Source: a virus | IMG/VR virus record: IMGVR_UViG_2910705042_000001 | Strand: one strand, 5' to 3' | DNA: 64,000 nt | The notes under the pieces: model-generated | Databases searched by the model: none | What the model was told of the DNA's origin: nothing | The model's input: only the letters and a program-made list of their open reading frames with translations | Position numbers and translations under genes: made by a program | Shown: positions 14,380 to 57,895 of the stretch, in pieces | How positions within the stretch are numbered: the first letter of the stretch is position 1 | Layout: the number at the start of each line of letters is the position of its first letter

Positions 14380-15243
14380 TTATATGGCCAAGTCCAACGG
14401 CAAGTCAGCAATGTCTTTGAGACGATTACCCGAAACAAGAGTGTCGAGCATGGATGAGGCTTCATCGTTGCCCAGCTTCTCCACGCCACGTTGAAGCTCC
14501 GGCAACGCGAAATGGTAGACAGCGTCGATGTCGCCCGTCCCCAAAGCGAGCGAAGCTAGGCGAGACGGTGAGGGCTCAGCCGTGACAACGCAGATGTGCG
14601 GCGTGCGGCCCTTCCGATTGCGGATGAGACTGAGAGCTTCCGATCGTGCATTTTGTGCGCGGTCGGAGCGTAAGGTCCACTTGCACGAGACAACGGCATG
14701 GACGATGTTCTCGGGATGATAGTCCGCGCGGATGCTGGCACCAGTCCCAGCCTTGTCGTCGACGAGGAACTCGTCACGGTTGATGACACTGTCGGGCTCA
14801 GGGGCTCGCACAACAACAACATCGGGGCTGATCGAATACGAGTTACCCAAGACGGTTGAGAGCGTGGGATCCTTCTTGACCGCGTCAGCCAGACTGTCCA
14901 AATGGAGGTAGGGGGAATACTTGGCAAGCTGATACTCCGAGCGCGACGACCCGAAGTTTGTCACCGTCCATGCGCCGGGCCGGATAGCTTGCAGGTGGGG
15001 AAAGACTGCTGTAACAAAACCAGCAACCGCATCCTCAAACAATTTGCCGGCGTGCTGTCCATCGTGTTTGACCGCAACTTGACTGGCACCGAGTTCCTCA
15101 GCGATACAGGCCGCAATCATCCGTGATGAACGCTGAGACCGATCCGCATTCGACGCAACACCCTTAGCATCAAGCGAGAGCGTGTGATCGGTGACGAGAC
15201 GTGTGTGGAAGGCCGCGCGTTCTTGAGAGAGCCAGGCGGTCAT
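14380..15243 (-). CDS. Type II restriction endonuclease, NgoMIV family
   Basis: ISPDVVV...SCKWTLRSDRAQNARSEAL..IRNRKG...VTAEP.PSRLASLALGTGDID is the NgoMIV-family signature; coupled to a C5 methyltransferase. Confidence 0.9.
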   Translation of the reverse strand: MTAWLSQERAAFHTRLVTDHTLSLDAKGVASNADRSQRSSRMIAACIAEELGASQVAVKHDGQHAGKLFEDAVAGFVTAVFPHLQAIRPGAWTVTNFGSSRSEYQLAKYSPYLHLDSLADAVKKDPTLSTVLGNSYSISPDVVVVRAPEPDSVINRDEFLVDDKAGTGASIRADYHPENIVHAVVSCKWTLRSDRAQNARSEALSLIRNRKGRTPHICVVTAEPSPSRLASLALGTGDIDAVYHFALPELQRGVEKLGNDEASSMLDTLVSGNRLKDIADLPLDLAI

Positions 15244-16193
15244 GCGCACCGACGATTCTCGCTCGCCGCGACCGACAATGCCGCGTTGATAGCCGTTCCC
15301 ACCGCACAGGCAACAGGGGGAGGAAAAGCATTACCCACTTGCCGGTAGGCGTTTGTTTTGGCTCCAGTGAAGACCCAATCGGCAGGGAATCCTTGAATGC
15401 GGGCTGCCATCTCAACGGTCAGACGCGGCATCCCGACAAAGTCGCGTTCGGGTGCTTCCTGGGCGATTGTCTTGCCATCAACACCCAGTGCCGCCCACGC
15501 ACGCTTGGCACGCGTTGGACCAAGGTCAGGCCCACCATGTTTCTTCGAACCACCAACAAGAGTAGGAGCGATCGAATCGGCTTGCTCAGCCCACTTTCGT
15601 GCACCCCTCCACCCGTTGGCACCCATGAGCGCACCCAAAGTCTGTCCAACAGTCGGGGCAGGTTCCACCGACGCAGTGGGCCACACGAACGGTGCTTGGT
15701 CATTGCGCATCGCCACAAAGACGACACGGGGACGAAGCTGGGGGACACCGAAGTCACTCGCATTCAACAAACGCCACTGTGGGGAGTAACCGAGCTCGCG
15801 AAGTTGATTCTCCACATCCCTGCGGTACGTCTCGAAAGCAATGTCCAACAATCCACGAACGTTCTCCAACATGACCGCGCGCGGACGAATAACCCCGACA
15901 ATCTCGATGGCCCGAGGAAACAAATCGCGCTCATCGTCTCCGCCCAACTGGAGACCCGCCTTCGAAAACGGCGGGCACGGAACTCCACCAGCCAAAAGGT
16001 CAACACCCACGAAAGGCGTCGGATCCCACGTATGCAAATCCTCCTCGACAACATTCCATCCGGGACGGTTCGTCCGAAGAGTCGTGCACGCATGATGGTC
16101 ATTCTCGACAAGAGCCACATGCTCAAAGCCCGCCATCTCAAGACCCAAGGCTTGTCCACCACCACCAGAACAAATCTCCACCGAAGTCATCAT
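15240..16193 (-). CDS. DNA (cytosine-5) methyltransferase, probable cognate of the NgoMIV-like enzyme
   Basis: EICSGGGG, GGVPCPPFS, ENVRG, QLRPR, YRQVGNAF motifs. Confidence 0.9.
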   Translation of the reverse strand: MMTSVEICSGGGGQALGLEMAGFEHVALVENDHHACTTLRTNRPGWNVVEEDLHTWDPTPFVGVDLLAGGVPCPPFSKAGLQLGGDDERDLFPRAIEIVGVIRPRAVMLENVRGLLDIAFETYRRDVENQLRELGYSPQWRLLNASDFGVPQLRPRVVFVAMRNDQAPFVWPTASVEPAPTVGQTLGALMGANGWRGARKWAEQADSIAPTLVGGSKKHGGPDLGPTRAKRAWAALGVDGKTIAQEAPERDFVGMPRLTVEMAARIQGFPADWVFTGAKTNAYRQVGNAFPPPVACAVGTAINAALSVAASENRRCA

Positions 16194-16211
16194 GGGCTTA
16201 ACAATACCCAG

Positions 16212-17270
16212 TCACCAGGTCACATTTTCCCGAGACACGAGGTCCAGGCGTGGCAGATAGGGAACCATACTTTGAGCAATCAACCGCACAGCAGGAACAA
16301 CCACACTGTTACCAAACTGACGGTACGCCTGCGTATCCGACACCGGAATGACAAACGAGTCCTCAAAACCCATGAGCCGAGCACATTCACGCGGAGTGAG
16401 CCGACGAGGATTCTTCCCACCCTGCCCCACAAGAATCTCCGACCCATCCTTGTAATAGCGAGCCGACAACGTACGAGCCACATCCTCCGGACCAACCAAC
16501 CCAAACCCAAACCCATTACCGGCAGCCCTGTGCTTAGCAGCATGATTCTGCAACCACGCCCACAACCGATCCGACAGGGTGTACGTGTCACTCACCCTCG
16601 CCTGCGCACCCTGCGTATACGGATACTCGACACCCTCAGAACCATCCTGCGGATGCAAAACACTCGCCAACACCGAACGCTCAGACGGCAACACAAGAGA
16701 GTTCACATCGAAACCTGTCTCCTCCCGGAACCCCACAATGTAAATGCGCTCGCGGTGTTGGGGGACGAAGAGTCCGCCGTCGATAACCCGGTAGGAGATG
16801 TGGTAGCCGAGTTCTTCTGTCAGGGTGCGCAGGATGATTCTGAAAGTGCGTCCGTGGTCGTGAGAGACGAGATTCTTCACGTTCTCGAGAAAGAATGCCA
16901 TGGGTCGTTTCGCGTCGATGATGCGTGCCACCTCGAAGAAGAGTGTCCCTTGAGTTTCATCCCGAAACCCGGTGGGCCTACCCAGTGAGTTTTTTGTGGA
17001 GACACCAGCGGTGGAGAAGGGTTGGCATGGGAAGCCTGCTAACAACACGTCGTGGTCGGGGATACTCTCGGCTTCGACCTGCGTGATGTCACCGGCAATG
17101 GGAGCATCCTGGCCAAAGTTGGCCACATACGTCTGGACGGAGTACTTGTTCCATTCGCTGGTGAACACGCATGTTCCACCAGCATCCTGGAATCCTCGCC
17201 GGATTCCGCCGATACCAGCGAACAAGTCGATGAAGGTGAATGTGTCCTGACTATGCGGCACGTGTGTCAC
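16212..17270 (-). CDS. DNA (cytosine-5) methyltransferase, Dcm/M.EcoRII-like
   Basis: [29 protein letters not shown]...[27 protein letters not shown]. Confidence 0.88.
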
Positions 17271-17383
17271 CTTCCATGTGTCGGTGGTTGTTGAATGCCA
17301 AAATCCTGCGCGAGTCCGATAGTGCTTTCTTCATCAGGACCCCGGCACGTCATGTGCATTAAGTGGCACGGTCTTTTCCTGCA

Positions 17384-17860
17384 TTACTCGTTCGCGTCCT
17401 TGATGAAGACGAGCCACAAGGTGCGGGCCTGCTTGCCCGATCGGGTCCCATACAGGGGTCGGTGGGGTGTCAATGCTAAAACATCCCTCACTGGGATCGC
17501 ATACTCGTTCCATTTGAAGACGAGAGTCCCGCACGGCTTCACGACACGGAAACACTCAGAAAAACCGGCTTTCAGATCATCGCGCCAGGTTCGACCTAGG
17601 ACACCGTACTTTGCGGCCATCGTGGAACGTGCTCCCAGATTGGTGAGGTGAGGCGGGTCGAACACGACGTGATAGAACGACTCATCCTCGAAAGGTAGAT
17701 GGCGAAAATCCATGACCATGTCAGGATGGACAGACAAGACTCGCCCGTCATCAATGCGTACCTGTTCGTCGCGGATGTCGCCGAAGATAGCCCGATCATC
17801 GGACTTATCGAACCACATCATGCGGCTGCCGCAACATGGGTCGAGGACTGGAGGATTCAT
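17384..17860 (-). CDS. Phage-type SAM-dependent (probable amino-DNA) methyltransferase
   Basis: VLDPCCGSRMMWFDK, VVFDPPHL, FKWNE. Confidence 0.8.
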   Translation of the reverse strand: MNPPVLDPCCGSRMMWFDKSDDRAIFGDIRDEQVRIDDGRVLSVHPDMVMDFRHLPFEDESFYHVVFDPPHLTNLGARSTMAAKYGVLGRTWRDDLKAGFSECFRVVKPCGTLVFKWNEYAIPVRDVLALTPHRPLYGTRSGKQARTLWLVFIKDANE

Positions 17861-18126
17861 ACGTACTGATCGTGCAGTTCGAGGAACTGAAGGAAGGCCC
17901 GTGAGTCTTCCTCGATCCCCTTGAGTGCCGCGTCACGGGCACGCCGCCGGTCAAGCTCCTGACGCATAAGATCGGAGTCTCGGGTGATGAGTCCGATCTG
18001 TTCCCGGTCTAGCTTGCGATCATGGCGCAGTTGGGCGTTCTCGGCTTCGAGTTGCTCATAGGTGGGCTTGGTGGGGGAGGCGTGTTTGGCGCTCATGGGG
18101 GAGGCTTCCTCGTAAGAGTGTGACAT
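17857..18126 (-). CDS. Small coiled-coil hypothetical protein
   Basis: TYEQLEAENAQLRHD; CCGCACAC 13 nt upstream; stop overlaps the next start. Confidence 0.55.
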   Translation of the reverse strand: MSHSYEEASPMSAKHASPTKPTYEQLEAENAQLRHDRKLDREQIGLITRDSDLMRQELDRRRARDAALKGIEEDSRAFLQFLELHDQYV

Positions 18127-18210
18127 GGACGTCCAGATAGTGTGCGGGCGAGCAAAGGCTCGTATGCGGGCAGGTGGCTACAGGTCTTGCCACCATTCGG
18201 TGCTGCGGGC

Positions 18211-18420
18211 CTACCGGCTGCTCGTGGTGGGCTGGTAGATGGTATGGAAACACTCGGGACACGTCACGTCATGGAGGGTCCCCAAAAAGCGGGTGACGTC
18301 CTTTCGGTTTGGTTGGAGAACATAGCCGCCGCACACGGCTTCGAGAGCGTTCTTCCGAACGGTTTTCGCGTCGACGACATGGACTTTCCCATCGCCTCGG
18401 GTGTCGATGAACAGCTTCAT
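18211..18420 (-). CDS. Small Cys/His phage-like protein
   Basis: RBS AAGGAG; H...C...CPEC. Confidence 0.55.
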   Translation of the reverse strand: MKLFIDTRGDGKVHVVDAKTVRKNALEAVCGGYVLQPNRKDVTRFLGTLHDVTCPECFHTIYQPTTSSR

Positions 18421-18675
18421 AGATTGGTGGACTCCTTAGTACGTGTCATGGACACCTCCACAGTGTGCGGGCAGACATCTCGCGAACACCGACCGGGTAT
18501 ACCCCGCCGACACCACCTCCACCACGCCTCACGCTGGACCCATGAGAATCATGAGAATCTGGGCTGTCCTGACGAGGGCACTCGTCAGAGTTTTGGATGC
18601 ACACCTGAGTGAGGACGTGGCGAGCGCTTGGTATGAGGCCGCATGGAGCGTCGATGACTGGAAGTCCAACCGTGA

Positions 18676-19788
18676 CTAGGCAAGACCTAGGGAGGACCTC
18701 ACCGCCTGAGCGAGAGCGAACCCAAGGAGCGGGGGAACCGCATTACCGATCTGGCGGAACTGAGCCGAGACCGGACCACACCAGTGCATGTCGGGTGGGA
18801 AGGTTTGTATCGCAGCCGCCTCCTGGACGGTCAGCCGACGCAGAAAGCCCGGAACCATCTGGTCCACACCATCGGCACCCATCTTCATGAGACGAGCATG
18901 ATAGTCCTCCACCCACGACCCGGTCGCGGATTCATCAAGCCAGCGCTGGTCAATGATGGGGGTCCGATTCCCACCCATGGATGCGGGTAACGTCGGCGAC
19001 GGAGCACCGAGGTCCAACGGACGTCCAGCTCCATTGAACAACATCCCGGCATACGCCGAACGGCGCACAACAGGATGTCGGGCCACCGTGATTCGTGCCC
19101 GACACAAGGAATCATTGCCCGGTTCCGTATAGTGGGGAAGACTCGACAATGCCTCCCGAACTGTGACAGGAGCACCAGCCGTCGTTGGAATCGGCACTCG
19201 AGGCTCACCGATGTCCCTTCGCACCCCCAGCAAGAACATCCGTTCACGATTCTGGGGAACACCGAAATCGGACGCATTCACAAGAACACGACGGGCCGAG
19301 TATCCGAGCCCATTCGCTCGAGACATGAGGCTCTCGCGAACGTGACTCCACTTTGCGTTAGTGTGGAGTGCTTTAACATTCTCCATGACGAAGGCACGCG
19401 GGCGGACACGCTCAACCATGTCCATGAAATGGAAGACGTGGGTGGAGCGGTGATCGTTGGGATCCATCTTTCCGGCGATGGAGAACCCCTGGCAGGGTGG
19501 CCCACCTATGACAAGGTCGGCCGAACCTTGCTGGGGAAGGTCGACGGCGGGAATGGTGAGGAGATCGCCCGCGAAAGATGTGCACGAGAAAGGCCCTAGA
19601 CGAGCCAATGCTGCTTCATGAGTGGCCAGCGCGACAGGATTGAGCTCGTTGACCCACACTGGGGCAAAACCTGCACGGGCAAATCCGATGTCGAGTCCGC
19701 CAGCCCCCGCGTACAGAGAGACAAAGGTTCCAATCGGATCCGTGGCGCCGTCTGTACCACTTCCCTTCATTAGAGCTTCGTGATGCAT
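18676..19788 (-). CDS. Orphan DNA (cytosine-5) methyltransferase
   Basis: SLYAGAGG, GGPPCQGFS, ENVKAL, PQNRER, FRQIGNAV. Confidence 0.9.
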   Translation of the reverse strand: MHHEALMKGSGTDGATDPIGTFVSLYAGAGGLDIGFARAGFAPVWVNELNPVALATHEAALARLGPFSCTSFAGDLLTIPAVDLPQQGSADLVIGGPPCQGFSIAGKMDPNDHRSTHVFHFMDMVERVRPRAFVMENVKALHTNAKWSHVRESLMSRANGLGYSARRVLVNASDFGVPQNRERMFLLGVRRDIGEPRVPIPTTAGAPVTVREALSSLPHYTEPGNDSLCRARITVARHPVVRRSAYAGMLFNGAGRPLDLGAPSPTLPASMGGNRTPIIDQRWLDESATGSWVEDYHARLMKMGADGVDQMVPGFLRRLTVQEAAAIQTFPPDMHWCGPVSAQFRQIGNAVPPLLGFALAQAVRSSLGLA

Positions 19789-20144
19789 ACGGCCGCGATG
19801 GAGGCGATGTGGTGTAGGTCGATGGACCCATCCCCGCAGTAGGAGACCCGGTCGGGTTCGTCAATGCGCACACACTTGTGCCCGTCACTGAGCCACCCAT
19901 ACGCGTTTTTGGCCTCGTTCGCGAGGATAGTGGGCAGATCGAGTTCGAGTTCACGGGCAATCTGGGAGCGGACGGCTCGTGCGATCTCTTCGTAGATGTG
20001 GGTGTGGTGTCCTGCCTGGTTGGCGAATGCCCGCCGACAGTCACATACTCGACACTCGCAAACATCCTGAGTGTTTTCCACATAGCCGGAACAAGTGGTC
20101 TTGATCGCCTGCGCGATGATGTCGATGCATGGATCGGTGGACAT
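19770..20144 (-). CDS. Phage-like hypothetical protein
   Basis: 124 aa ORF, Cys-rich N-terminus, RBS GAAGGA. Confidence 0.5.
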   Translation of the reverse strand: MSTDPCIDIIAQAIKTTCSGYVENTQDVCECRVCDCRRAFANQAGHHTHIYEEIARAVRSQIARELELDLPTILANEAKNAYGWLSDGHKCVRIDEPDRVSYCGDGSIDLHHIASIAAVCITKL

Positions 20145-20285
20145 GAGGTGTTTCCTTCACGGCGAGGCGTCTGTTGGACACTCGCTATGTGTGCGGGAAA
20201 GCCCACTGGGTGCGTCAGGAGCCCAGCGGAATCTCGATCTCACTCCACCGCTCGCAGATGTCATCGCACCGCTCGGCAACATCAC

Positions 20286-20459
20286 TCATACGAAAATGGG
20301 GGACTGGTCGATGGTTTCCGAGACGAACTGGTAGTACAACTGTCTGAGCGTGAGTTCGCAACCTATCTCGAAATACTGCTCGCAGATGCGGATGGCGTAC
20401 TCGATGACGGTGAGAATGTTGGGCTGGAACGTTTTGGACGCTCAGGAGATGCGAGGCAT
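20286..20459 (-). pseudogene. Remnant of a phage LTLRQLYYQ-type (Topo VI-A/TOPRIM-like) gene
   Basis: RBS plus MPRIS*ASKTFQPNILTVIEYAIRICEQYFEIGCELTLRQLYYQFVS; in-frame TGA at codon 6 and early truncation. Confidence 0.5.
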
Positions 20460-20699
20460 CCTTTCCCCTCCTTCAGTTCCCGAGCTGGGATGAAGGTCCG
20501 CACGCACACGTCCTCCAGATGGATGGGGAAGACCTTTTGGCGACGTCGGGGATAACACCCATCGGACTCGACATCCACCACAGCACCCTGAGAGAAGTGA
20601 CGGTGGGTGCGTGGGAGTACGGATACTGGGTGACAAGAACCTACAAGACCGGACTATTAGATCTCGCTCATCTTCTGGGGCGGTTGTAGCGAAGACGGC

Positions 20700-21686
20700 T
20701 TATGACAGGATCGTTTGAGTCATCGCTCCAGATCTACGCATCCCGATTGAGTACTCAGGGTTGGAATCCACGAGGTCCCTAATGGAGTCTCGAAACGAGT
20801 GGTTGCCCTCTATGCCATGGAGGAACGACGCGAGTGTCAGCACTGGCACATACCCTGATTGAGGCCAAGTAGTTCGATTCTTCTCTCGGCGGTAAACGCT
20901 GGGAAACTTCGGCGTGACAGGAGCGGGTCTCGCCCATAAGCGCGAGTGGTGTGCGACGAGGTTTCGAAGGACAGAAACGCTCTCCAACTGTCGAGCAAGT
21001 CCCTCGGCACCGACGTTTAGACGTTCAGCCACCGGACCTATAAGAAGAGTCTGTTGATCGAGGGACGTGCTCCCTGGAACTCTTAATGCGGGGACACAAC
21101 GTGAGAGAGTCCCGAAGGTCCACCAGTCAATCGTGGACCAAATGGGAAGTGTGGATAGTGCCGTCACCTGTTCTTCTGGTGTCCTTGTGTCAAGATCGTC
21201 GTGAGGGATGCCTTGTTCATAACAGGATTCCTGCACCTTTTTCTTTATGTATGGTTCGCTCGCGCGCAGAATCTGCGATCGGATGGATCGAGCAAGAGAG
21301 TGCTCTCCGTCTTTCGTGATTCGATATGACTCGTCTTGCAGATAGTAGGTACACGGGTCCAACCCAGCAGCGCAATATGCTTCGACAAAGCATGATCGGA
21401 TTCCTCGTTCGGCCCGTTGTATCCCAGAGAAGAGCTCAAGCGACACTTTGGCGTCCAACTCGCATATGTCGACAACGGCATCAAGGCCACCACGTCCCCC
21501 GTAGGCGACGTAATTGCGAAGATACCCGAGGAAGAAGTGAAAATTGTTGTGCTCAAGGTAGTCTCTCACTCGCTGACTACACGCACTTTTGGAAGCAAGG
21601 TTCCCTCGGTTGACGAGATAGCTAATCCGTCCATCAATATCGAGATAGGGAGGTGGATTCTGTAGTGAGGACACGCCTATGAGCAT
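20700..21686 (-). CDS. Abi family (Abi_2, AbiD/AbiF-like) HEPN protein
   Basis: PYLDIDGRISYL..RG, LPIW..IDWWTFG.LS, HEPN motif LRNLVAHH. Start taken at ATG 21686 (uncertain). Confidence 0.8.
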   Translation of the reverse strand: MLIGVSSLQNPPPYLDIDGRISYLVNRGNLASKSACSQRVRDYLEHNNFHFFLGYLRNYVAYGGRGGLDAVVDICELDAKVSLELFSGIQRAERGIRSCFVEAYCAAGLDPCTYYLQDESYRITKDGEHSLARSIRSQILRASEPYIKKKVQESCYEQGIPHDDLDTRTPEEQVTALSTLPIWSTIDWWTFGTLSRCVPALRVPGSTSLDQQTLLIGPVAERLNVGAEGLARQLESVSVLRNLVAHHSRLWARPAPVTPKFPSVYRREKNRTTWPQSGYVPVLTLASFLHGIEGNHSFRDSIRDLVDSNPEYSIGMRRSGAMTQTILS

Positions 21687-21705
21687 ACGCCGACACTCAC
21701 CGCAC

Positions 21706-21750
21706 AAAAAAAGGACTCCCCTGTAGCATCGCGATGAGAGGCCGGGGAGT
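21706..21750 (-). ncRNA. Candidate structured leader or RNA antitoxin hairpin upstream of the Abi gene
   Basis: On the coding strand ACTCCCC-N22-GGGGAGT followed by CC and T7; the loop contains the palindrome CATCGCGATG. Confidence 0.45.
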
Positions 21751-22028
21751 ACTGTTGGTATCAACCATAGCGAGTTGTGCGGCCCCACTCAAAGTGAATG
21801 CGGCGTGTCTCACTGTGTGTCAGCGCTCTGTTACCACCCAATCTCGGCCAGCCCGTGTGGGTGCGAAGAAGTAGACATCTCCATGCACGCATGTGCTGGT
21901 GATGAGTCTGCGATTCTCGAGAGCGGTGGCTGTTCGACCATAGCGGCGGTACATGTCTATATAAAGCCCTCCATCCGGGGTAGGTCCGCATATCTCAGTC
22001 AGCAGTTCTGCCTACGGTTTCGTCAGCC

Positions 22029-24422: not shown

Positions 24423-24926
24423 ATGACGAACAGCTGGCTGGCGGGGGAGAATCCGCAGGACGGGTCACGGCATCGCAAGGACAGGTGGCTGACACCTTCT
24501 TCCCTGACCGACCCGCTCGGACACTTTGACTTGGACCCCGCAGGAGCACCCGGACACACGATCGCCGACCGAACCTATCTCATTGACCAAGGAGAGGATG
24601 GACTCGTGCTGCCGTGGAACAACCGAGTGTGGCTTAACCCTCCCTATGGCAAGCTTCTCAGCCCGTTCATGGCGCGGATGGCAGAACACAACCACGGCAC
24701 GGCGCTCATCTTTGCCCGGACGGAGACAGCGATGTTTCATGCCTACGTCTGGCCATTGGCCAGTGCAGCGCTCTTCCTACGGGGGAGAGTGACGTTCTTG
24801 GATGCGGAAGGCAAGCGAGCCTCGGCGAACGCGGGAGCACCTTCCGTCCTCCTTGCCTACGGGGACGAGGACGCCCACATCCTCAGTGCGAGTGGTATCG
24901 ACGGAGCCTTCCTTCGACTCCACTGA
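24423..24926 (+). CDS. Phage-type DNA N6-adenine methyltransferase (Dam_phage-like)
   Basis: W.TP...FDLDP...DGL..PW..RVWLNPPYG...ARTET...RGRV.F. Confidence 0.85.
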   Translation: MTNSWLAGENPQDGSRHRKDRWLTPSSLTDPLGHFDLDPAGAPGHTIADRTYLIDQGEDGLVLPWNNRVWLNPPYGKLLSPFMARMAEHNHGTALIFARTETAMFHAYVWPLASAALFLRGRVTFLDAEGKRASANAGAPSVLLAYGDEDAHILSASGIDGAFLRLH

Positions 24927-25244
24927 GGACTTCTTCGGGTCGGTTGGTGTACCCAAAATGGTCATTGTATCAACTGGGGTGTGTTTGTAGGGGTGGGGTG
25001 TGGCCCATGTGTGGTGGGTCGGGTGGGCTGGTTCGGGGGACCCATGAGGGACCTGTGGGAGGGGTGTGGGTCGTGTTTGTGACTCTCGTGGACATCCATT
25101 CACACGATCCAACACTGCCAAAGCATCCTCGCGCGGAGGTGGTCTGGAGGTGATCAACCACGTCTAAACGTGCCACCAGCATCTCCAACACCCGGGAAAA
25201 GCGAGTTTCGGACCACACAACGCCGTTTTTGGGCGTTCTGGGTT

Positions 25245-25876
25245 TTTGTAAGCTCCGTGATTACGGAGCTTACAAACAGTGTGCGAGCCTGTCAAATCGA
25301 CGCTCCGAGGCCACAAAATCGCGTAAGAAAATGGCGGAATATCAACGAAAAGTCGTGTCCCCAAAGACTTTTCGTTGCAATACCGCCATTTCGGGGAAAC
25401 CGTGGGGACACCTGGGGACACTTGTGGGGACAGTAGTTTTGTTGGTATTACAAGGAAAACTCTATATATATCTAGTGTCCCCAGTGTCCCCACAAAAAAA
25501 CACATATCGTGTGCGACCCATACGCACTCTCTCTTTACCTGTCCCACCTCACTACGTGACGCGAACATCCCCCTCCCCTCATAGAGAGAGCAAACATCCT
25601 CTCTCTATATGTGTGGTGTTTTTCTGGGGACACTGGGGACAGGCCCTCAAAACACCGACTTTTCGTTGCTATCTCGCGGAAACACCTGTCCCCACCAGTG
25701 TCCCCAGTGTCCCCACGCAAACACGAAAACGGCGTCATACCAACGAAAAGTCGTGGGGACACCCCTTTTTCGGCGTTATTCCGCCACTTTCACCCCCGAC
25801 ACGCCGACATTTCTCACCTGTTCACTGGGGTTGCTACACTGCCAGAGCAGCTGGCATGTGTAGCAACCCCAGTGAA
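25245..25876. repeat. Iteron- and hairpin-rich region, candidate replication origin or partition site
   Basis: 12 copies of TGGGGACA/TGTCCCCA in inverted clusters (25356-25761); 4 copies of AACGAAAAGTC; perfect IRs at 25245-25276 (14 bp) and 25821-25876 (18 bp); AT-rich spacer; located at the gene-strand switch. Confidence 0.75.
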
Positions 25877-25988
25877 AACCCACCACACCCACCACCACGG
25901 CCCCACACCCACCTCACCGCACCACCCCACCATCCCAAAAAGATACGATGACGCACCACGTGGGGTGAGTTCCGCACACTGAGAGTGC

Positions 25989-27707
25989 ATGACTGAGATT
26001 TCCCTTGGTGTCGTGGGTTCACGAGACATCGCGCATGAGCTCACTCAGGTCGGCTTTTCCGTCGTCTCGAGTGAAGACCCGATTGCGAGTGCCGCGCTGT
26101 CGTCATCGACTTTCCTCACGATCGTGATTGACTCACCGAGTCATCCGCCGCTTCTGAGTGCGATGGTGGACAACCTTGTCGCCCAAGGGGTGCGTGTCGC
26201 CGTTCTGGATTGTCCGGGAGGTGTGCTGGCCTCTTCCAACGCAGATGCGGCCCACATTTCGCGGTCTGAGCCTGTGAATCTCGCGGTGTTGCTCTCTCAA
26301 TGTGGTGTGGAGCCTGCCCGTGCCATCGCTGCCGCGACCGTGACAATCCCCAGAATTGATTCTGAGCCACCTACGGCCCCCGTACGTGGAGATGCCCCAC
26401 CGAGCACCCAAACGGCTGTGAGAGCCGATCCTGTGCGTCCTGAGCCATATGTCGCACCCGAACGCACTTCAGCGTTTGCACAGCCCCCGAAGGAGCCGTT
26501 CGAGCCGGTTTCGGTCACACCGGCATCTGTCGACGATTTTGAGCCAGTGCCGGTGGCTGACGAACCACCACCAGCGACGTACAAGCCGACCCCATCATTT
26601 GAGCCACCACCAGCGGCATTTGAACCCGCCCCAGCGGCATTTGAACCCGCCCCAGCGGCATTTGAACCCGCCCCAGCAGCGGACCATCCGTTTGAGCCGC
26701 CAGTTGGTGTCTACACCCCATCAGCGGGGTTTGAGTCGGTGCGCACGCCGATTGACCAGGTCTCCAGAGGCGCGTTCGAGTCACTCGGGCCGGTTCATGC
26801 CAGCCATAGGGCTCGAGCGTTCGCTTTTGACGACGACCTTCGCCGGGAGCAGCCCAACCAGGGCATCCTCATCCTCGTCATGAGTGGCAAGGGCGGAGCG
26901 TTGAAGACGACCCTGTCGATGTGTCTGGCACAGGCTGTTGGTCGCCACGGACTCAAGGCAACACTCATCGACGCGAACCGTGGACAGGCCGATGTGTCAA
27001 CCATGCTTCGTCTTCGTCCGGGTTTTCCCACGATCTGGAATTATGCGATGGGAAGCGCGTATTCCGAAATTGCCATGACGCCAGCAATGGTGAGTGACTA
27101 TCGTCCTTCCATCCTTGATGACGTTCTCTTCAAGTTTGTTGCCGGTCCAAACGCGGGCACATCTGACGCAAAAACGGTCACTCACCGTGTCTACCAAGAC
27201 GTCATAAACAATGCTCTCAATGACTCCGATGTGGTGATTGTAGATACTCAGATCATGGAGGACTCCGACCAGTCTGGTTTATTCACAAATGTGTTCCTTC
27301 CAGCGTTGAGAAATCAACGCAACCCGACATGGTCCGTCTTCTTGACCGAGACGAGTAGACAGTCCCGCGACAACATGGTGAACCGAGTCACCTCCATGGT
27401 CAAAGAGGAAGCAGTTGACGCCAGTCACATCCTTCTCTGTCTGACACAGAAGGGCGAAAGTGACGACAAGGTCGAGCAGCAACTCATCGAAGCGGTCAGT
27501 AACGGACGTCTTCCCGGAACATGGGTGGGGAGCGTCCCTTTCGACGAGGCTGCCCGCAGTTCACAGGCCCTTGGACATCTCATCGACGGAAACGCCACAT
27601 TCGTTCCAGTCGTGACGACAGTGTTGAGTTCGGTAACCGGAGATCCTCGTTTCGACACTGAGAAGACATCAGGGAAGAAGAAGAGGTTCTCGTGGCGTCG
27701 CCGGTGA
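25989..27707 (+). CDS. ParA/MinD (CpaE-like) ATPase with N-terminal receiver-like domain and Pro-rich linker
   Basis: Deviant Walker A SGKGGALKTT, LIDAN, VIVDT. Confidence 0.75.
   Translation: MTEISLGVVGSRDIAHELTQVGFSVVSSEDPIASAALSSSTFLTIVIDSPSHPPLLSAMVDNLVAQGVRVAVLDCPGGVLASSNADAAHISRSEPVNLAVLLSQCGVEPARAIAAATVTIPRIDSEPPTAPVRGDAPPSTQTAVRADPVRPEPYVAPERTSAFAQPPKEPFEPVSVTPASVDDFEPVPVADEPPPATYKPTPSFEPPPAAFEPAPAAFEPAPAAFEPAPAADHPFEPPVGVYTPSAGFESVRTPIDQVSRGAFESLGPVHASHRARAFAFDDDLRREQPNQGILILVMSGKGGALKTTLSMCLAQAVGRHGLKATLIDANRGQADVSTMLRLRPGFPTIWNYAMGSAYSEIAMTPAMVSDYRPSILDDVLFKFVAGPNAGTSDAKTVTHRVYQDVINNALNDSDVVIVDTQIMEDSDQSGLFTNVFLPALRNQRNPTWSVFLTETSRQSRDNMVNRVTSMVKEEAVDASHILLCLTQKGESDDKVEQQLIEAVSNGRLPGTWVGSVPFDEAARSSQALGHLIDGNATFVPVVTTVLSSVTGDPRFDTEKTSGKKKRFSWRRR
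26610..26672 (+). repeat. 21-bp tandem repeat x3 (PAAFEPA) inside the ParA-like linker
   Basis: CCAGCGGCATTTGAACCCGCC, three perfect copies. Confidence 0.9.
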
Positions 27708-28177
27708 AACAGCCCTCGTGGTTCACCGGACCATCCGTCCCCACGCCGACATCACGGTCGTCTGCCATCACATCGGCCGAGGGGCACGCGGCCCGCAGAG
27801 CAGCAGACCGTGAACGTGGGGTGTTCTTGACACATGTTCACCAGTCCAAGATGAGCGTGTGGCAGGCATTAGGTGAGGCTGACCGTCGCGGGGGCGCCTT
27901 GTCCAAAGTTCCATTGACCCGCATTCTCATAGAGACGGGGGAGTCTCGTACGCGTGCCGTGTGGATTCCCAAGCGTGTCGTCGAACTGACGGGGGAAGCC
28001 AAGAAGACCCGAGGTCCGGTCAATGTCTCATGGATGTGCGACAAGAAAGCCGGCGGGAATCGGTTGCTGTGCTTGGCCGAAGTGTTGTCTGAACGCGGGG
28101 ATGTGCCGTGGCCAGGATTCCCGTTCGTCGTGCCACCTTTCGATGTAGACGAGGTGGCCTCGGCATGGACAGCATGA
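27692..28177 (+). CDS. Hypothetical protein
   Basis: Overlaps both neighbours in an operon arrangement. Confidence 0.6.
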   Translation: MASPVKQPSWFTGPSVPTPTSRSSAITSAEGHAARRAADRERGVFLTHVHQSKMSVWQALGEADRRGGALSKVPLTRILIETGESRTRAVWIPKRVVELTGEAKKTRGPVNVSWMCDKKAGGNRLLCLAEVLSERGDVPWPGFPFVVPPFDVDEVASAWTA

Positions 28178-29466
28178 AAGAAAAGGTCGCTCACGCACTC
28201 CAAGATGAGGCGGACGTGGTGAGTCTTGCCGCCGAACTGGTGGAGGTGTTCAAGGGGTCCGGGCAACGCCGGGTCAGGTCTCGGGTGCATGGCTTGAGCG
28301 CGGATGAAGCTGTCTCTTTGCTCAACGAAGCCTTCGTATGGTTCTTGCATCGAGCCCGCACCGATAGGACATATCTGGACGGAATCAGTGACGTCATGTC
28401 AGTTCTCGTCATCCGCGCCCAGCAAGAAGGGTGGAGGTATGTTCATGAGCGTTCCAGCATCGTCTCAGGAACATCGGGGCAATTGTGGCGGCAACGCGAA
28501 ATCATCAAGACGAGGACAGCGCTACTGGAACGGGGTGCGCCGTTCACCCGCGATGATCTGATCGAACAGACGAATGCGCGTCTGGCAACCCAACGAAAAG
28601 ACTTCGCCCGACAAGGGATGCGGGTCTCGCCCGTGGACGTGGCAATGCTCTACGGAGTGCGCGAACTCGACAGTGAGCGTGCCAGCAATGTCGATGAACT
28701 CAGCGTGGCTGAAATCGTTCACGACACAGGTGGGCAAGGGATCTTCGGCGAGTTCATGAGCTGGTATGTCCAAGCGTGCATGGATGTGGGGATCAAACCT
28801 TCCCCCGAAGACCGCAAGGTGTGGGCGGCAGCCCATTCACTCTCACCCGCCCAGTGTTCCGAAATGGCACGTCTGGCCGACCAAAAACTCGAACGTTACG
28901 CCGGACAAGGGATGGGCCGAGGACTATTCATCGCCGTGGAAGGGGTGCGCGGGGCAGGCTTGACCACTCAGGTGCGTCAGATTCACAAGCTTGTCCATTC
29001 GTGGAGGCGTGAATGTGTGGTGGTGCGTCTACGCTCCCCACGTGCCCGAATCTCCACACCATCATCCCGCGTCCTGTCATGGGCACTGTCTGTCGCTGAG
29101 GTCTCCGAGGTTGTCCGGGACGGACTGGATAATGGGGCCGTCGTCATCGCGGATCGGTTCACCGCGAGTGTGGAGGCGTTCGGGGAATCTGAAGGCTTTG
29201 ATCTTGACGATGTTCGTTCCATCTCCCGCTTTGCGGGCACCAACCTTGTCCCGGATGCGACGATTCTTCTTGACGCGCCCGACGTACCCGGAGAACAGGA
29301 TACTGATGGATGGGCCAGAGGGACCTACAGGTTTCTCAGCGAAGATCCGACATGGTTTTGTGTGGATGCCAGTCGCCCCGTCCCCGAGGTGACTCGAGAG
29401 GTGGAAGCGATCGTTGCCCGGGTGTGTGGCAGAGACATGAGCATCCCGCACACTACACGTGCATGA
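28174..29466 (+). CDS. Fusion: putative sigma70 region 2/3-like N-domain plus degenerate thymidylate-kinase-like C-domain
   Basis: The C-domain has the TMK pattern FIAVEG.RGAGLTTQ...VIADRF..S...PDATILLDAP, with the P-loop Lys replaced by Leu. The N-domain ELVEVFKG..RRVRSR....ADEAVSLLNEAFVW...IRAQQEGWRYVHE resembles sigma region 2 by eye only. Confidence 0.55.
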   Translation: MKEKVAHALQDEADVVSLAAELVEVFKGSGQRRVRSRVHGLSADEAVSLLNEAFVWFLHRARTDRTYLDGISDVMSVLVIRAQQEGWRYVHERSSIVSGTSGQLWRQREIIKTRTALLERGAPFTRDDLIEQTNARLATQRKDFARQGMRVSPVDVAMLYGVRELDSERASNVDELSVAEIVHDTGGQGIFGEFMSWYVQACMDVGIKPSPEDRKVWAAAHSLSPAQCSEMARLADQKLERYAGQGMGRGLFIAVEGVRGAGLTTQVRQIHKLVHSWRRECVVVRLRSPRARISTPSSRVLSWALSVAEVSEVVRDGLDNGAVVIADRFTASVEAFGESEGFDLDDVRSISRFAGTNLVPDATILLDAPDVPGEQDTDGWARGTYRFLSEDPTWFCVDASRPVPEVTREVEAIVARVCGRDMSIPHTTRA

Positions 29467-30932
29467 ACCAACTCGACCAAGTAGGTGGACTCCTCTGCCA
29501 TTCAGGGACTCCTTCTTTCACGTTCACTGACTCAGGAATTGAACTGACCGACACGGCCATTGGTGTCATCCGCCGCAAGAAGTGGTCAGTGTCGGCTATG
29601 AAGGCTCAGCATGGGTGTCGGGCACGCTTCGGGGTGGAAAAGCTCGTGCCGTGGAGGGTGGTTCCCCATTCTCCGGCCCACATCGGCACGGTCTTCCATA
29701 GTGTCATGGAGAATCTGGCGGGATTGCCCGGCCCGGCACGCACACCGGATAAAGCCGCAGCGCTCATCACGGATATGATTCGGCGCGAAATCCGGGCCGG
29801 GGTTCTCACTGATGATGACATGGTGGCCTATACCGACCGGGTGCGACCTCTTGTCACACGTATGTTCGAGATTGAGAATGTCGCCGCGATTGACACGTTC
29901 GCCTGCGAGAAATGGGTGAACCTGACGATCAGTGGTGTTCCGTTCACCGGTGCAGTGGACCGGCTGGATACAACGTCCACCGGTGGGCTGAAAGTTGTGG
30001 ATTACAAGACCGGCAAGGTTCCCAACCTTCGTTTCGGAGACGACCACGGAGACCAGTTACGTGTCTACGCATGGGCCGTCCCGCGTGTCCTCAAGCGCGA
30101 GGTCGATGAAGCATTCCTCTACTATCCGGCCGCCCCTACCCGGGCAGATACCGTGCGCCAGGTGGACTTGTCTGAGGATGCGGTTGCCCGTGTCATCGAC
30201 GACATTCCGGCCACCTATGCCCAACACATGAAAGACATGACTGACGCCTTCCTGCCGTTTGAGACCGGGCCACTGTGTGCATGGTGTCCACTGTCGGCGC
30301 TGTGTCCTGCCGCCCATGCGGCAGGCATTCAGCCGAGCGAACGCTATGACGGCGCACTTGACCCAGCCCAGACCGGACTCCTCACACCAACGCCTGCCAT
30401 TGTCACACCCGAGCCTGCCCCCAACCCGGACGATGAGTTGCCCCGACAGGCACTGGATCGCCTGCGTCCCACGCCCGCACACACAGAAAGGGAGGGAAAG
30501 GACACCATCATGCCGATTTTTGACGAAGCCAAACCGTGGGAAGAGACCCGTGGGGTCAACGCCAACGCCTATTCGACCGCCACCGCATTCGGACTTATCG
30601 CACTCGCAGCCGAAAAACTCCACGAGCAGGGTCAGGGGGCGGTGATGGAAGATGTTGAAGCTCTCGCAGGGACGTTCGACTGGATGATTCATGCCGTGGC
30701 GAGCAAGGTCTCCCAGACAGACGACCCCGAGGCCGGTATTCACACGCGCCTGTCGGGTGCACTGCGCACGAGTCTTCTCATCCATCCCATCCCCACCACG
30801 TTCGAAGTGGCCGACTGGAAGGCGTGGCAAAAGACAACCGCTAAGACGATGCTCACGGTCTGCGGTATCGCCTACGACATGTGTGATGCGAAGACACCCA
30901 AGACCAACGCCATCATCTCCTACCTTTCCTGA
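29463..30932 (+). CDS. RecB-family PD-(D/E)XK exonuclease (Fe-S, 4 Cys) with fused C-terminal domain
   Basis: SVSAMK...C, GT.FH..ME, GAVDRLD, VVDYKTG, QL..YA, CAWCP...LC. Start at 29463 (ATGA overlap, motif 9 nt upstream). Confidence 0.85.
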   Translation: MNQLDQVGGLLCHSGTPSFTFTDSGIELTDTAIGVIRRKKWSVSAMKAQHGCRARFGVEKLVPWRVVPHSPAHIGTVFHSVMENLAGLPGPARTPDKAAALITDMIRREIRAGVLTDDDMVAYTDRVRPLVTRMFEIENVAAIDTFACEKWVNLTISGVPFTGAVDRLDTTSTGGLKVVDYKTGKVPNLRFGDDHGDQLRVYAWAVPRVLKREVDEAFLYYPAAPTRADTVRQVDLSEDAVARVIDDIPATYAQHMKDMTDAFLPFETGPLCAWCPLSALCPAAHAAGIQPSERYDGALDPAQTGLLTPTPAIVTPEPAPNPDDELPRQALDRLRPTPAHTEREGKDTIMPIFDEAKPWEETRGVNANAYSTATAFGLIALAAEKLHEQGQGAVMEDVEALAGTFDWMIHAVASKVSQTDDPEAGIHTRLSGALRTSLLIHPIPTTFEVADWKAWQKTTAKTMLTVCGIAYDMCDAKTPKTNAIISYLS

Positions 30933-57792: not shown

Positions 57793-57895
57793 ATCTCTCC
57801 TTTGTGTCTTCACATGCCTGGCTACTTACCTCGTGTGCGGAAAAGGTCGCAGGTCTGGGTGGTGGCGGGGCGCGCGTCCCGCACACTAGGGAGGC

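What the first reader, a model, noticed from the sequence alone, without database searches (positions are those of the whole stretch)
28174..29466. Divergent sigma-like domain fused to a probably inactive thymidylate kinase fold: candidate reader of the motif
Seen: the C-terminal ~190 aa follow the TMK pattern, but the P-loop reads GVRGAGLTT, with Leu in place of the essential Lys. By eye, the N-terminal ~245 aa resemble sigma70 regions 2-3, with no clear region 4 HTH. Established: sigma region 2 reads the -10 element, and T4 gp55 is a region-2-only sigma. Inference: an element-encoded sigma-like factor, possibly gated by nucleotide binding to a pseudo-kinase domain, that recognises CCGCACAC. 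Its operon (parA-like, 25989) carries the motif, which would allow autoregulation.
Basis: inference. Interest (0 to 1): 0.75.

Follow-up and report, generated by a model that had tools for sequence, protein, structure and literature searches.

The report
Island sigma-like factor with dead kinase
A gene on a ~140-kb conjugative island encodes a very diverged sigma-factor-like protein fused to a thymidylate-kinase fold that has lost its catalytic parts. It is the best candidate reader of the island's own one-box promoter (CCGCACAC), which sits just before the start codons of dozens of island genes, but RNA polymerase binding and motif reading are untested.

Summary
ORF 28174-29466 (430 aa) has a C-terminal thymidylate-kinase (TMK) fold. 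Its P-loop reads GVRGAGLTT (Lys to Leu, Asp to Arg). It also lacks the REPGGT loop and most of the LID, so it is almost certainly inactive; a normal tmk lies elsewhere in the genome.

No Pfam or NCBIfam sigma model hits residues 1-245. A profile of the 12 known relatives matches a profile of actinobacterial group-3 sigma factors over regions 2.1-3.1 (hhalign probability 83%, E 9e-6; controls 0.16-0.46). Fold searches list mainly sigma factors. A region-4-like helix-turn-helix at 175-245 is plausible but not shown.

The gene ends a conserved, translationally coupled operon: ParA-like, mIHF-like small protein, sigma-like. CCGCACAC is concentrated in the island (67 of 200 genomic copies). It lies exactly 9 nt before 30 start codons, or ahead of leaders that often carry a Shine-Dalgarno, with no -35 partner. 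The motif recurs with homologues in two other elements, at other spacings, which fits a promoter better than a translation signal.

That this protein binds RNA polymerase and reads the motif remains inference (about 50%). This scan earlier noted similar private promoters with sigma-like proteins on other actinobacterial conjugative elements. Verdict: a new variant of a known kind.

The parts
28174..29466 (+). Whole gene: sigma-like N-terminal part fused to a degenerate thymidylate-kinase fold (430 aa)
   Evidence: ATGA overlaps at both ends
28207..28458 (+). Residues ~12-95: sigma domain 2-like helical bundle (regions 2.1-2.4)
   Evidence: hhalign against a group-3 sigma profile: probability 83%, E 8.9e-6, query columns 18-139. 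VIA-align: SigW Z 7.7, rmsd 2.8 over 87 residues; SigC sigma2 Z 7.2, rmsd 2.5 over 81
28465..28653 (+). Residues ~98-160: sigma region 3.0/3.1-like block, the most conserved part of the family (SGT..RR.REL.KTR..L...G..PT..E..E.TN.RL..RKD..RQGM)
   Evidence: Alignments A1 and A4. hhalign against a primary-sigma profile: E 0.002 at region 3.0/3.1. Pfam Sigma70_r3 is the only family hit by two members, best E 0.0045
28696..28908 (+). Residues ~175-245: three-helix HTH domain, possibly sigma region 4-like. It follows a disordered acidic linker (161-174) that is placed like region 3.2
   Evidence: pLDDT 80-95. VIA-align: SigR region 4, Z 5.6-5.7. hhalign reaches only E 0.024 and 0.054 at the region 4.2 HTH. 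Inconclusive
28909..29463 (+). Residues ~246-430: thymidylate-kinase fold, predicted inactive
28939..28968 (+). P-loop remnant EGVRGAGLTT (L263 in place of the catalytic Lys, R259 in place of Asp)
   Evidence: The orthologue P0005 has EGIHGAGVST and also lacks the Lys
29152..29160 (+). Retained DRF (DR[Y/H/F]) motif of the TMK fold
25972..25979 (+). CCGCACAC copy 9 nt before the first start codon of the operon (ParA-like, ATG 25989)
25989..27707 (+). ParA/CbiA-like ATPase with a long N-terminal extension; first gene of the conserved three-gene operon
   Evidence: Synteny in L004/L005 and G142
27692..28177 (+). 161-aa protein, always directly upstream of the sigma-like gene and overlapping it; mIHF-like core plus a PWPG[FY]P[FY]..PP tail
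   Evidence: hhalign against the host mIHF: probability 67%, E 5e-5; reversed control 0.78
29446..29453 (+). CCGCACAC copy inside the last codons of the gene, 9 nt before the ATG (29463) of the downstream PD-(D/E)XK nuclease gene

Best explanation
The gene encodes a very diverged member of the sigma-70 superfamily. Its domains are sigma2-like, sigma3-like, an acidic linker and a probable sigma4-like HTH, with a catalytically dead thymidylate-kinase fold fused at the C-terminus.

It is made from a translationally coupled operon (ParA-like ATPase, mIHF-like small protein, sigma-like protein) that is conserved in a rare family of large actinobacterial mobile elements.

**Proposed mechanism (inferred, not shown).**
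- The protein binds the host core RNA polymerase and directs it to the island's own single-box promoter, CCGCACAC(tA).
- That box lies at about -17 to -8 from the transcription start and has no -35 partner.
- At 30 island genes, transcription would then begin at or next to the A of the start codon, giving leaderless mRNA. At others it would begin ahead of a short leader; 12 of the 19 leaders at least 15 nt long carry a Shine-Dalgarno-like sequence.
- The operon itself starts behind a motif copy, so the factor would activate its own synthesis.
- The TMK-like domain no longer phosphorylates dTMP. It is an accessory module, for regulation, dimerisation or docking, that other family members lack or replace.
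For: **Sigma homology.**
- A profile of 12 family N-termini against a profile of 20 actinobacterial group-3 sigmas gives probability 83% and E 8.9e-6 over 108-111 columns, colinear over regions 2.1-3.1.
- Controls (reversed template, reversed query, beta-prime, TMK) give E 0.16-0.46.
- Against a primary-sigma profile, region 3.0/3.1 matches at E 0.002.
- VIA-align, full-length model: about 20 of the top 25 chains are sigma factors. Examples: ShbA Z 8.7; SigB Z 8.4 over 187 residues; SigW Z 7.7, rmsd 2.8; SigC sigma2 Z 7.2, rmsd 2.5.
- Foldseek, N-terminal model (pLDDT 79.5): the top ~19 rows are nearly all sigma factors aligned end to end, though every E exceeds 0.1.
- In one search, almost all rows that span residues 1-245 are chains from sigma-factor entries.

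**The motif behaves as a promoter.**
- 67 of 200 genomic copies lie in the ~150-kb stretch C1:915-1065 kb.
- 30 of them sit exactly 9 nt before a start codon.
- There is no conserved -35. The start context is Y at -1 and A at +1.
- Of 19 copies whose start lies at least 15 nt away, 12 have an SD-like sequence in between, against a 19% background.
- Divergent gene pairs have as little as 38 bp between their ATGs.
- No sigma-70-type promoter is found in 24900-29600.

**Link between protein and motif.**
- The fused orthologue's contig L003 has 10 copies in 10 kb. In most, the called start lies tens of nt downstream, about 26-27 nt in the clearest cases, with an SD in between.
- G142, a different genus, encodes a homologue (E 2.6e-28). 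It has 23 copies in 62 kb near that gene, and in five cases the motif sits 11-12 nt before an ATG.
- No canonical sigma gene lies in the island, and the host has only two.

**Dead kinase.** The host has its own tmk.

**Precedent.** Mobile elements with their own sigma factors include Tn916 Sig7-8 (bioRxiv 10.64898/2026.10.01.756105) and pBS32 SigN (PMC6751061).
Against: - No Pfam or NCBIfam sigma model hits the protein, even at E 10.
- A family profile finds no sigma among PDB sequences.
- All fold Z-scores (up to 8.7) lie in the range the tool calls common for helical proteins. With the better model, unrelated helical bundles mix into the list.
- Region 4 is not established.
- RNA polymerase binding could not be tested.
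- The co-occurrence of motif and protein is confounded. The three elements are related, so every core gene co-occurs with the motif.
- The contigs of the more distant homologues P0009 (L004/L005) and L018 have no exact CCGCACAC.
- Many motif copies lie at junctions of overlapping co-directional genes, which is unusual for promoters.
- There are no transcript-start data.
Confidence: 0.5

Rival explanations
1. The protein is a DNA-binding global regulator or partition adaptor, not a sigma factor. In this reading its HTH-type domains bind CCGCACAC as double-stranded operators over the island's promoters, and it works with the ParA-like ATPase. The model is KorB/KorA/IncC of plasmid RK2 (from my own knowledge). 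Transcription would be carried out by a host sigma.
For: - It is the third gene of an operon led by a ParA-like ATPase, which is conserved in four elements.
- Residues 175-245 also match plain HTH proteins, including the KorA-operator and KorB/KorA complexes, at Z 5.2-5.3.
- Region 4 and RNA polymerase binding are unproven.
Against: - The colinear profile match is to sigma regions 2.1-3.1, the polymerase-binding and -10-reading part, not merely to an HTH.
- No ParB/KorB-like signature is found.
- The copies are dispersed, one per gene start at a fixed distance. They are not clustered like a centromere.
- No host-type -10 (TANNNT) lies beside the motif, so another sigma would still be needed.
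Confidence: 0.2
2. The protein is a genuine sigma-like factor, but CCGCACAC is read by something else: the host ECF or primary sigma, another island protein, or an RNA-level factor such as a start-associated translation or processing signal like the SAS of Cluster K mycobacteriophages. This factor would then control a different, smaller set of promoters.
For: - The link between protein and motif rests only on co-occurrence in related elements.
- Motif copies sit at overlapping gene junctions, as a translation signal would.
- SAS are a precedent for short motifs just before start codons in actinobacterial mobile DNA (PMC3203893).
Against: - The distance from motif to ATG differs between elements: 9 nt here, 11-12 nt in G142, and about 26 nt with an SD in between in the clearest L003 copies. 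This argues against a translation signal tied to the start codon.
- The motif has no SD character.
- The island has no other sigma candidate.
- The host ECF sigma would be expected to need a -35 element, and none is conserved.
Confidence: 0.2
3. The gene is a working thymidylate kinase with an unrelated N-terminal extension. It would supply dTDP for the island's own DNA polymerase.
For: - Pfam PF02223 scores above its cut-off.
- The island encodes its own DnaE-type polymerase.
- Related contigs carry dUTPase and other nucleotide-metabolism genes.
Against: - P-loop Lys is Leu and Asp is Arg, the REPGGT loop is deleted, and the LID is shortened without Arg. The same losses are present in the 33%-identical orthologue.
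- TIGR00041 scores far below its cut-off.
- The host has a normal tmk.
- Most family members have no TMK domain.
Confidence: 0.04

Closest known systems
Group-3 sigma-70-family factors of Actinomycetota and Firmicutes (SigF/SigB/WhiG type; e.g. S. aureus SigB in PDB 8x6g)
   Same: - Colinear profile match over regions 2.1-3.1.
- Same order of parts: helical sigma2, sigma3, disordered acidic linker, C-terminal HTH.
- SigB is the best full-length structural match (Z 7.5-8.4, 187-198 residues aligned).
   Different: - No curated sigma HMM detects the protein.
- Region 4 is unproven.
- The putative promoter has one box and no -35.
- A roughly 185-residue TMK-fold domain is fused at the C-terminus.
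- The family is confined to rare mobile elements: only 8 relatives at E <= 0.001 among 1.84 billion representative proteins, one of them probably spurious.
Sigma factors carried by mobile elements: Tn916 Sig7-8 (bioRxiv 10.64898/2026.10.01.756105), pBS32 SigN (PMC6751061, PMC10601692)
   Same: - The element carries its own sigma, which drives element genes.
- The factor's own operon sits behind its promoter, giving an auto-activating switch.
   Different: - Those factors have been tested experimentally and sigma models recognise them.
- They serve few promoters.
- Here the putative regulon has 40 or more promoters over ~140 kb, most of them giving leaderless mRNAs, and the factor carries a pseudo-enzyme domain.
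Phage T4 gp55 and its late promoters (TATAAATA, no -35); from my own knowledge, plus chain 7d7d_F
   Same: - A diverged sigma that reads a single 8-bp box at -10 with no -35 element.
- A chain of the T4 late-transcription complex is among the structural matches (Z 6.4, rmsd 3.2, 87 residues aligned).
   Different: - gp55 has only a sigma2-like part and needs gp33 and the sliding clamp.
- This protein also has sigma3-like and probable sigma4-like parts.
- The best matches are cellular sigmas, not gp55.
ECF sigma factors regulated by fused C-terminal extensions (review PMC8999054)
   Same: A sigma core carries an extra C-terminal domain that is variable within the family, which suggests a regulatory module.
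   Different: I could find no report of a TMK-fold extension. The core here has a region 3, which ECF sigmas lack.
Start-associated sequences (SAS) of Cluster K mycobacteriophages (PMC3203893)
   Same: A short asymmetric motif, private to an actinobacterial mobile element, lies a few nucleotides before the start codons of a subset of genes, in the orientation of the gene.
   Different: - SAS (GGGATAGGAGCCC) contains an SD-like core and was proposed to act in translation.
- CCGCACAC has no SD character.
- Its distance to the ATG changes between related elements, and leaders that often carry an SD can lie between it and the start.
Thymidylate kinase (PF02223, TIGR00041)
   Same: - Fold and core strands.
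- The DR[Y/F] motif.
- About 26-33% identity to solved and host TMKs.
   Different: - P-loop Lys and Asp are replaced.
- The REPGGT loop is deleted.
- The LID is truncated.
- The protein scores below the equivalog cut-off.

Membership tests
Sigma-70 family | Domain sigma2 (regions 2.1-2.4), detectable by sequence profile | tested here: met
   hhalign of family profile A4 against 20 group-3 sigmas: probability 83%, E 8.9e-6, colinear over regions 2.1-3.1; four controls at E 0.16-0.46
Sigma-70 family | Sigma2 fold | tested here: inconclusive
   Residues 1-95 superpose on many sigma2 domains at rmsd 2.5-3.2 over 81-87 residues, Z 7-7.7. Such Z values are common for helical bundles, and unrelated bundles score alike with the second model
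Sigma-70 family | Region 3.0/3.1 | tested here: met
   Included in the match. E 0.002 against the primary-sigma profile. Weak Pfam Sigma70_r3 hits in two members, best E 0.0045
Sigma-70 family | Region 4 (4.2 HTH; -35 reading, flap binding) | tested here: inconclusive
   A three-helix HTH at 175-245. SigR region 4 Z 5.6-5.7. hhalign E 0.024 and 0.054 at the region 4.2 HTH. No -35 element is conserved upstream of the motif
Sigma-70 family | Reaches the curated thresholds of Pfam/NCBIfam sigma models | tested here: not met
   No hit to Sigma70_r2, r3, r4 or r4_2, even at E 10
Sigma-70 family | Binds core RNA polymerase (beta-prime clamp helices) | not testable with these tools
Sigma-70 family | Directs promoter-specific initiation | not testable with these tools
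   Only indirect evidence: motif geometry and co-occurrence
Thymidylate kinase | Family profile match | tested here: met
   PF02223 31.9 bits against a cut-off of 27. The equivalog TIGR00041 scores 45.6 against 83.25
Thymidylate kinase | P-loop GxxGxGK[ST] with catalytic Lys | tested here: not met
   GVRGAGLTT has Leu for Lys. Orthologue P0005 has Val
Thymidylate kinase | dTMP-binding REPGGT loop and Arg-rich LID | tested here: not met
   A 14-residue deletion and a shortened LID without Arg, relative to the host TMK
Thymidylate kinase | DR[Y/H/F] motif | tested here: met
   ADRF at residues 326-329
Start-associated sequences (Cluster K phage type) | Motif tied to the start codon at a few nucleotides, with an SD-like core | tested here: not met
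   No SD-like core. The spacing is 9 nt here, 11-12 nt in G142 and about 26 nt with a separate SD in the clearest L003 copies

The most novel reading that the evidence does not exclude
A previously unrecognised sigma family, invisible to current sigma models, acts as the master switch of giant actinobacterial conjugative islands. In this reading it is always made together with an mIHF-like protein and a ParA-like ATPase. It reads a -35-less single box so that most island mRNAs are leaderless. Its dead thymidylate-kinase domain senses the thymidine-nucleotide pool or the replication state and gates island transcription accordingly.
Probability: 0.12. Interest if true: 0.85.

Novelty: new variant of a known kind. 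Interest (0 to 1): 0.64.

Why it matters
If confirmed, the host's transcription machinery would be redirected by a sigma factor that no annotation pipeline recognises, to a private promoter code covering a ~140-kb conjugative island.

- **Self-contained regulation.** It would explain how such elements keep dozens of genes silent or active as one block, largely through leaderless mRNAs.
- **New architecture.** It would add a sigma core fused to a pseudo-enzyme, and a conserved pairing of a sigma with an IHF-like protein.
- **Testable system.** One factor and one 8-bp box give a simple system for studying single-box promoter recognition and leaderless expression in Actinomycetota.
- **Practical use.** Together with similar cases noted by this scan on other actinobacterial elements, it suggests that element-encoded sigmas are under-annotated. 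It also gives a family profile (A4) to search with.

Tried and rejected
**Searches that found nothing useful.**
- Profile of the N-terminal family against PDB sequences: no sigma, only chance rows.
- hhalign of the family against single host sigma sequences: not significant, although the short alignments fell in the expected regions.
- First attempt at a primary-sigma profile: it failed because the longest ORF in high-GC loci was often not the sigma gene. Rebuilt.
- Word-based homologue searches: almost nothing.
- Pattern-based scans of one genome per species and of IMG/VR: no relatives.
- tblastn against plasmids and phages: only ordinary TMKs, nothing for the N-terminal part.
- PHROGs: only thymidylate kinase.
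- The C-terminal domain of the G142 homologue: no PDB sequence match and no Pfam family.
- Literature searches for the motif string and for a sigma-TMK fusion: nothing relevant.

**Counter-example hunt.** I looked for genomes rich in CCGCACAC but without a homologue.
- The excess in G182 is a CRISPR array with a 61-bp period whose repeat contains the motif.
- The excess in G114 is dispersed, not an island.
- Other genomes with a moderate excess (for example G061, G185, G002) were not examined.

**Ideas set aside.**
- The AAAGTGCCA repeats near the G187 homologue as a co-varying promoter motif: they are tandem iterons in one 800-bp region.
- The spacer purines (ggG) before the ATG as a Shine-Dalgarno: they lie only 1-4 nt from the start.
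Full report
**1. The gene**

The ORF runs from ATG 28174 to TGA 29466 and encodes 430 aa. Its ATG overlaps the stop of the upstream 161-aa gene as ATGA. Its own stop overlaps the ATG (29463) of the downstream PD-(D/E)XK nuclease gene. Homologous gene pairs on three other contigs have the same 4-nt start overlap. This supports 28174 over the start at 28165 used in the database copy.

The window lies at C1:938232-1002231 of a single-contig genome of 2.66 Mb and 57.8% G+C.

**2. C-terminal domain: a dead thymidylate kinase**

Residues ~245-430 match thymidylate kinase (TMK):
- Pfam PF02223 at E 1.3e-7, 31.9 bits against a cut-off of 27.
- Solved TMKs at E 7e-9.
- PHROG 'thymidylate kinase'.
- The equivalog TIGR00041 scores far below its cut-off.

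EGVRGAGLTT aligns with EGLDGSGKTT, so the catalytic Lys is Leu and the Asp is Arg. Aligned with the host's own 222-aa TMK, which has GDGSGKTT, the domain also lacks 14 residues of the REPGGT loop. Its LID is short and has no Arg. DRF is kept.

The only fused orthologue is P0005, 33% identical, from a metagenome. It shows the same losses, with EGIHGAGVST in the P-loop. The losses are therefore old, and the domain has been maintained without catalysis.

The genome has a normal tmk at C1:223886-224302.

**3. N-terminal part: a diverged sigma**

*Curated models and homologues*
- No Pfam or NCBIfam model hits residues 1-245.
- HMMER over 1.84 billion representative proteins found eight relatives at E <= 0.001 besides the protein's own database copy.
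- These are P0005 (also TMK-fused), six stand-alone proteins of 242-327 aa, and P0010, a 2,694-aa protein matched in 12 short stretches, which I take to be spurious.
- One stand-alone relative is a hypothetical protein of an Isoptericola strain.
- A search of 200 genomes of the same family added a 563-aa homologue in G142 with a different, unknown C-terminal domain, and two weaker ones.

*Profile-profile comparison*
- A profile of the 12 N-termini (A4) was compared with a profile of 20 actinobacterial group-3 sigma factors, built from loci L077-L096.
- hhalign gave probability 83% and E 8.9e-6 over 108-111 colinear columns covering regions 2.1-3.1.
- Controls with the reversed template, the reversed query, a beta-prime profile and the TMK profile gave E 0.16-0.46.
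- Against a primary-sigma profile, the family's most conserved block (..RR.REL.KTR..L...G..PT..E..) aligns with region 3.0/3.1 at E 0.002.
Their loci were left out.

*Fold evidence*
- The full-length model has pLDDT 58, but 70-89 for residues 1-160.
- Compared with 48,161 PDB representatives, about 20 of the top 25 rows were sigma factors.
- They include ShbA (Z 8.7), SigB (Z 8.4, 187 residues aligned), SigW (Z 7.7, rmsd 2.8 over 87) and SigC sigma2 (Z 7.2, rmsd 2.5 over 81).
- Sigma32, RpoS sigma2, WhiG and a chain of the T4 late-transcription complex are also listed.
- The N-terminal model has pLDDT 79.5. Its Foldseek list is made almost wholly of sigma factors aligned end to end, but all at E above 0.1.
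- Its VIA-align list is mixed. Almost all rows that cover residues 1-245 are chains from sigma-factor entries.
- These Z values are in the range the tool warns about. I therefore count the fold evidence as corroboration of the profile result, not as proof.

*Region 4*
- Residues 161-174 are disordered and acidic, placed like region 3.2.
- Residues 175-245 form a three-helix HTH.
- That HTH resembles SigR region 4 (Z 5.6-5.7) and aligns weakly with the region 4.2 HTH (E 0.024 and 0.054).
- Region 4 is therefore plausible but not shown.

**4. Context**

The gene is the last of three overlapping genes.

- **ParA/CbiA-like ATPase (25989-27707).** It has a long N-terminal extension.
- **161-aa protein (27692-28177).** See below.
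- **The sigma-like gene.**

The full triad recurs with P0009 (L004/L005) and in G142. On the P0005 and P0011 contigs, which are cut upstream, only the small-protein and sigma-like pair can be confirmed.

The 161-aa protein aligns with the host's actinobacterial IHF (mIHF) at probability 67% and E 5e-5; the reversed control gives 0.78. It has a conserved PWPG[FY]P[FY]..PP tail.

The surrounding DNA is a large conjugative island. It carries:
- a VirB4-like AAA_10 ATPase and FtsK-like ATPases;
- an SLT/NlpC/M23 wall hydrolase;
- SSB and a DnaE-type polymerase;
- an SNF2 helicase;
- a Dam-like methyltransferase and an NgoMIV-type restriction system.

**5. The motif**

*Distribution*
- CCGCACAC occurs 31 times in the window against 4.5 expected.
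- It occurs 200 times in the genome, 67 of them in C1:915-1065 kb.

*Position*
- In the island, 30 copies end exactly 9 nt before a start codon that opens an ORF of at least 60 aa.
- The consensus is cCCGCACACtAc..ggGyATGA.
- Nothing is conserved at -35.
- A pyrimidine precedes the A of the ATG, as at transcription starts.
- Nineteen further copies have the start at least 15 nt downstream. Twelve of these have an SD-like sequence in between, against a 19% background.
- Divergent pairs leave as little as 38 bp between two ATGs.

This geometry is that of a -10 / extended -10 element for leaderless or short-leader mRNAs. The sequence is not the host-type TANNNT, and no sigma-70-type promoter is found around the operon.

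**6. Link between protein and motif**

*In favour*
- The contig of the fused orthologue (L003, 53% G+C, a different sample) has 10 copies in 10 kb. They face the downstream genes. In most, the called start lies tens of nt downstream, about 26-27 nt in the clearest cases, with a canonical SD in between.
- G142 has 23 copies in the last 62 kb of contig C5 around its homologue and 18 in the first 112 kb of C3, against about one per 33 kb elsewhere. In five cases the motif sits 11-12 nt before an ATG.
- The box is thus conserved while its distance to the ATG changes. This favours transcription over translation.
- The island holds no canonical sigma, and the host has only a primary sigma and one ECF sigma.

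*Weak points*
- The three elements are related, so any core gene shares this co-occurrence.
- The contigs of the more distant homologues have no exact copy.
- In a hunt for counter-examples, one motif-rich genome owed its excess to a CRISPR array whose repeat contains the motif, and another had dispersed copies. Others were not examined.

**7. Verdict**

| Claim | My estimate |
|---|---|
| The protein belongs to the sigma-70 superfamily | about 0.8 |
| The TMK domain is inactive | about 0.9 |

Closest known:
- Group-3 sigmas, for the core.
- Tn916 Sig7-8 and pBS32 SigN, as element-borne, self-activating sigmas (bioRxiv 10.64898/2026.10.01.756105; PMC6751061).
- T4 gp55, for single-box promoters.
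- ECF sigmas with C-terminal extensions, for the fused module (PMC8999054).
- SAS of Cluster K phages, as the rival reading of the motif (PMC3203893).

Earlier notes of this scan describe similar private leaderless promoters with sigma-like proteins on other actinobacterial conjugative elements. I did not test those. I could find no report of a sigma core fused to a TMK-fold pseudo-enzyme and paired with an mIHF-like protein.

Noticed in passing
window 27692-28177 (+): The 161-aa protein directly upstream looks like a diverged actinobacterial IHF (mIHF): hhalign against the host mIHF gives probability 67%, E 5e-5. It has an added tail ending in PWPG[FY]P[FY]..PP. It overlaps the sigma-like gene in five elements, so it may be a co-factor of the sigma-like protein.
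   Followed up: partly
window 29446-29466 (+): A motif copy lies inside the last codons of the sigma-like gene; the tail IPHTTRA is encoded by it. It is 9 nt before the ATG of the PD-(D/E)XK nuclease gene, whose ATG overlaps the stop as ATGA. If the motif is a promoter, an internal promoter sits at a translationally coupled junction.
   Followed up: partly
G000:C1:915000-1065000 (island; window = 938232-1002231): The motif copies fall into two classes. Thirty sit exactly 9 nt before a start codon (leaderless type). About a dozen sit 24-45 nt before a start with a canonical Shine-Dalgarno in between, for example window 30475 and 37091.
   Followed up: yes
L015:17437-19128 (G142:C5): The homologue in another genus carries the sigma-like N-terminal part fused to a different C-terminal domain of about 280 aa. 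That domain has no Pfam or PDB sequence match. Its start (..ELWAGIGVT..) recalls motif I of C5 methyltransferases by eye only.
   Followed up: partly
L017:768-1583 (G187:C1, about 8 kb from a truncated homologue): Twenty-four copies of a 9-bp unit (AAAGTGCCA), in tandem and inverted clusters within 800 bp. They look like iterons of a replication origin or a centromere.
   Followed up: no
G182:C1:637848-641698: A CRISPR array with a 61-bp period and more than 60 repeats. Its repeat contains CCGCACAC, so it inflates genome-wide counts of the motif in that genus.
   Followed up: partly
window 57833-57886 and 57896-61690: Two motif copies face apart, 46 bp from each other, between a 386-aa gene of unknown family and the island's own DnaE-type DNA polymerase III alpha gene (1264 aa). 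In L004/L005 a DnaE gene likewise lies divergent from the ParA-like operon.
   Followed up: no
window 14380-21788 (-): A defence cluster: an NgoMIV-type restriction enzyme, three C5 cytosine methyltransferases and an Abi_2 protein. Several are preceded by motif copies (18140, 18463, 20189).
   Followed up: no
L004:3985-4010 (-) and 7172-7190 (+): The element of the distant homologue P0009 has no exact motif. It does have CCACACACctgtagag and tCGCACACtagatt, which resemble the CCGCACACt(a/c)tgtag form seen in L003. This may be a variant box that co-varies with a variant factor.
   Followed up: no
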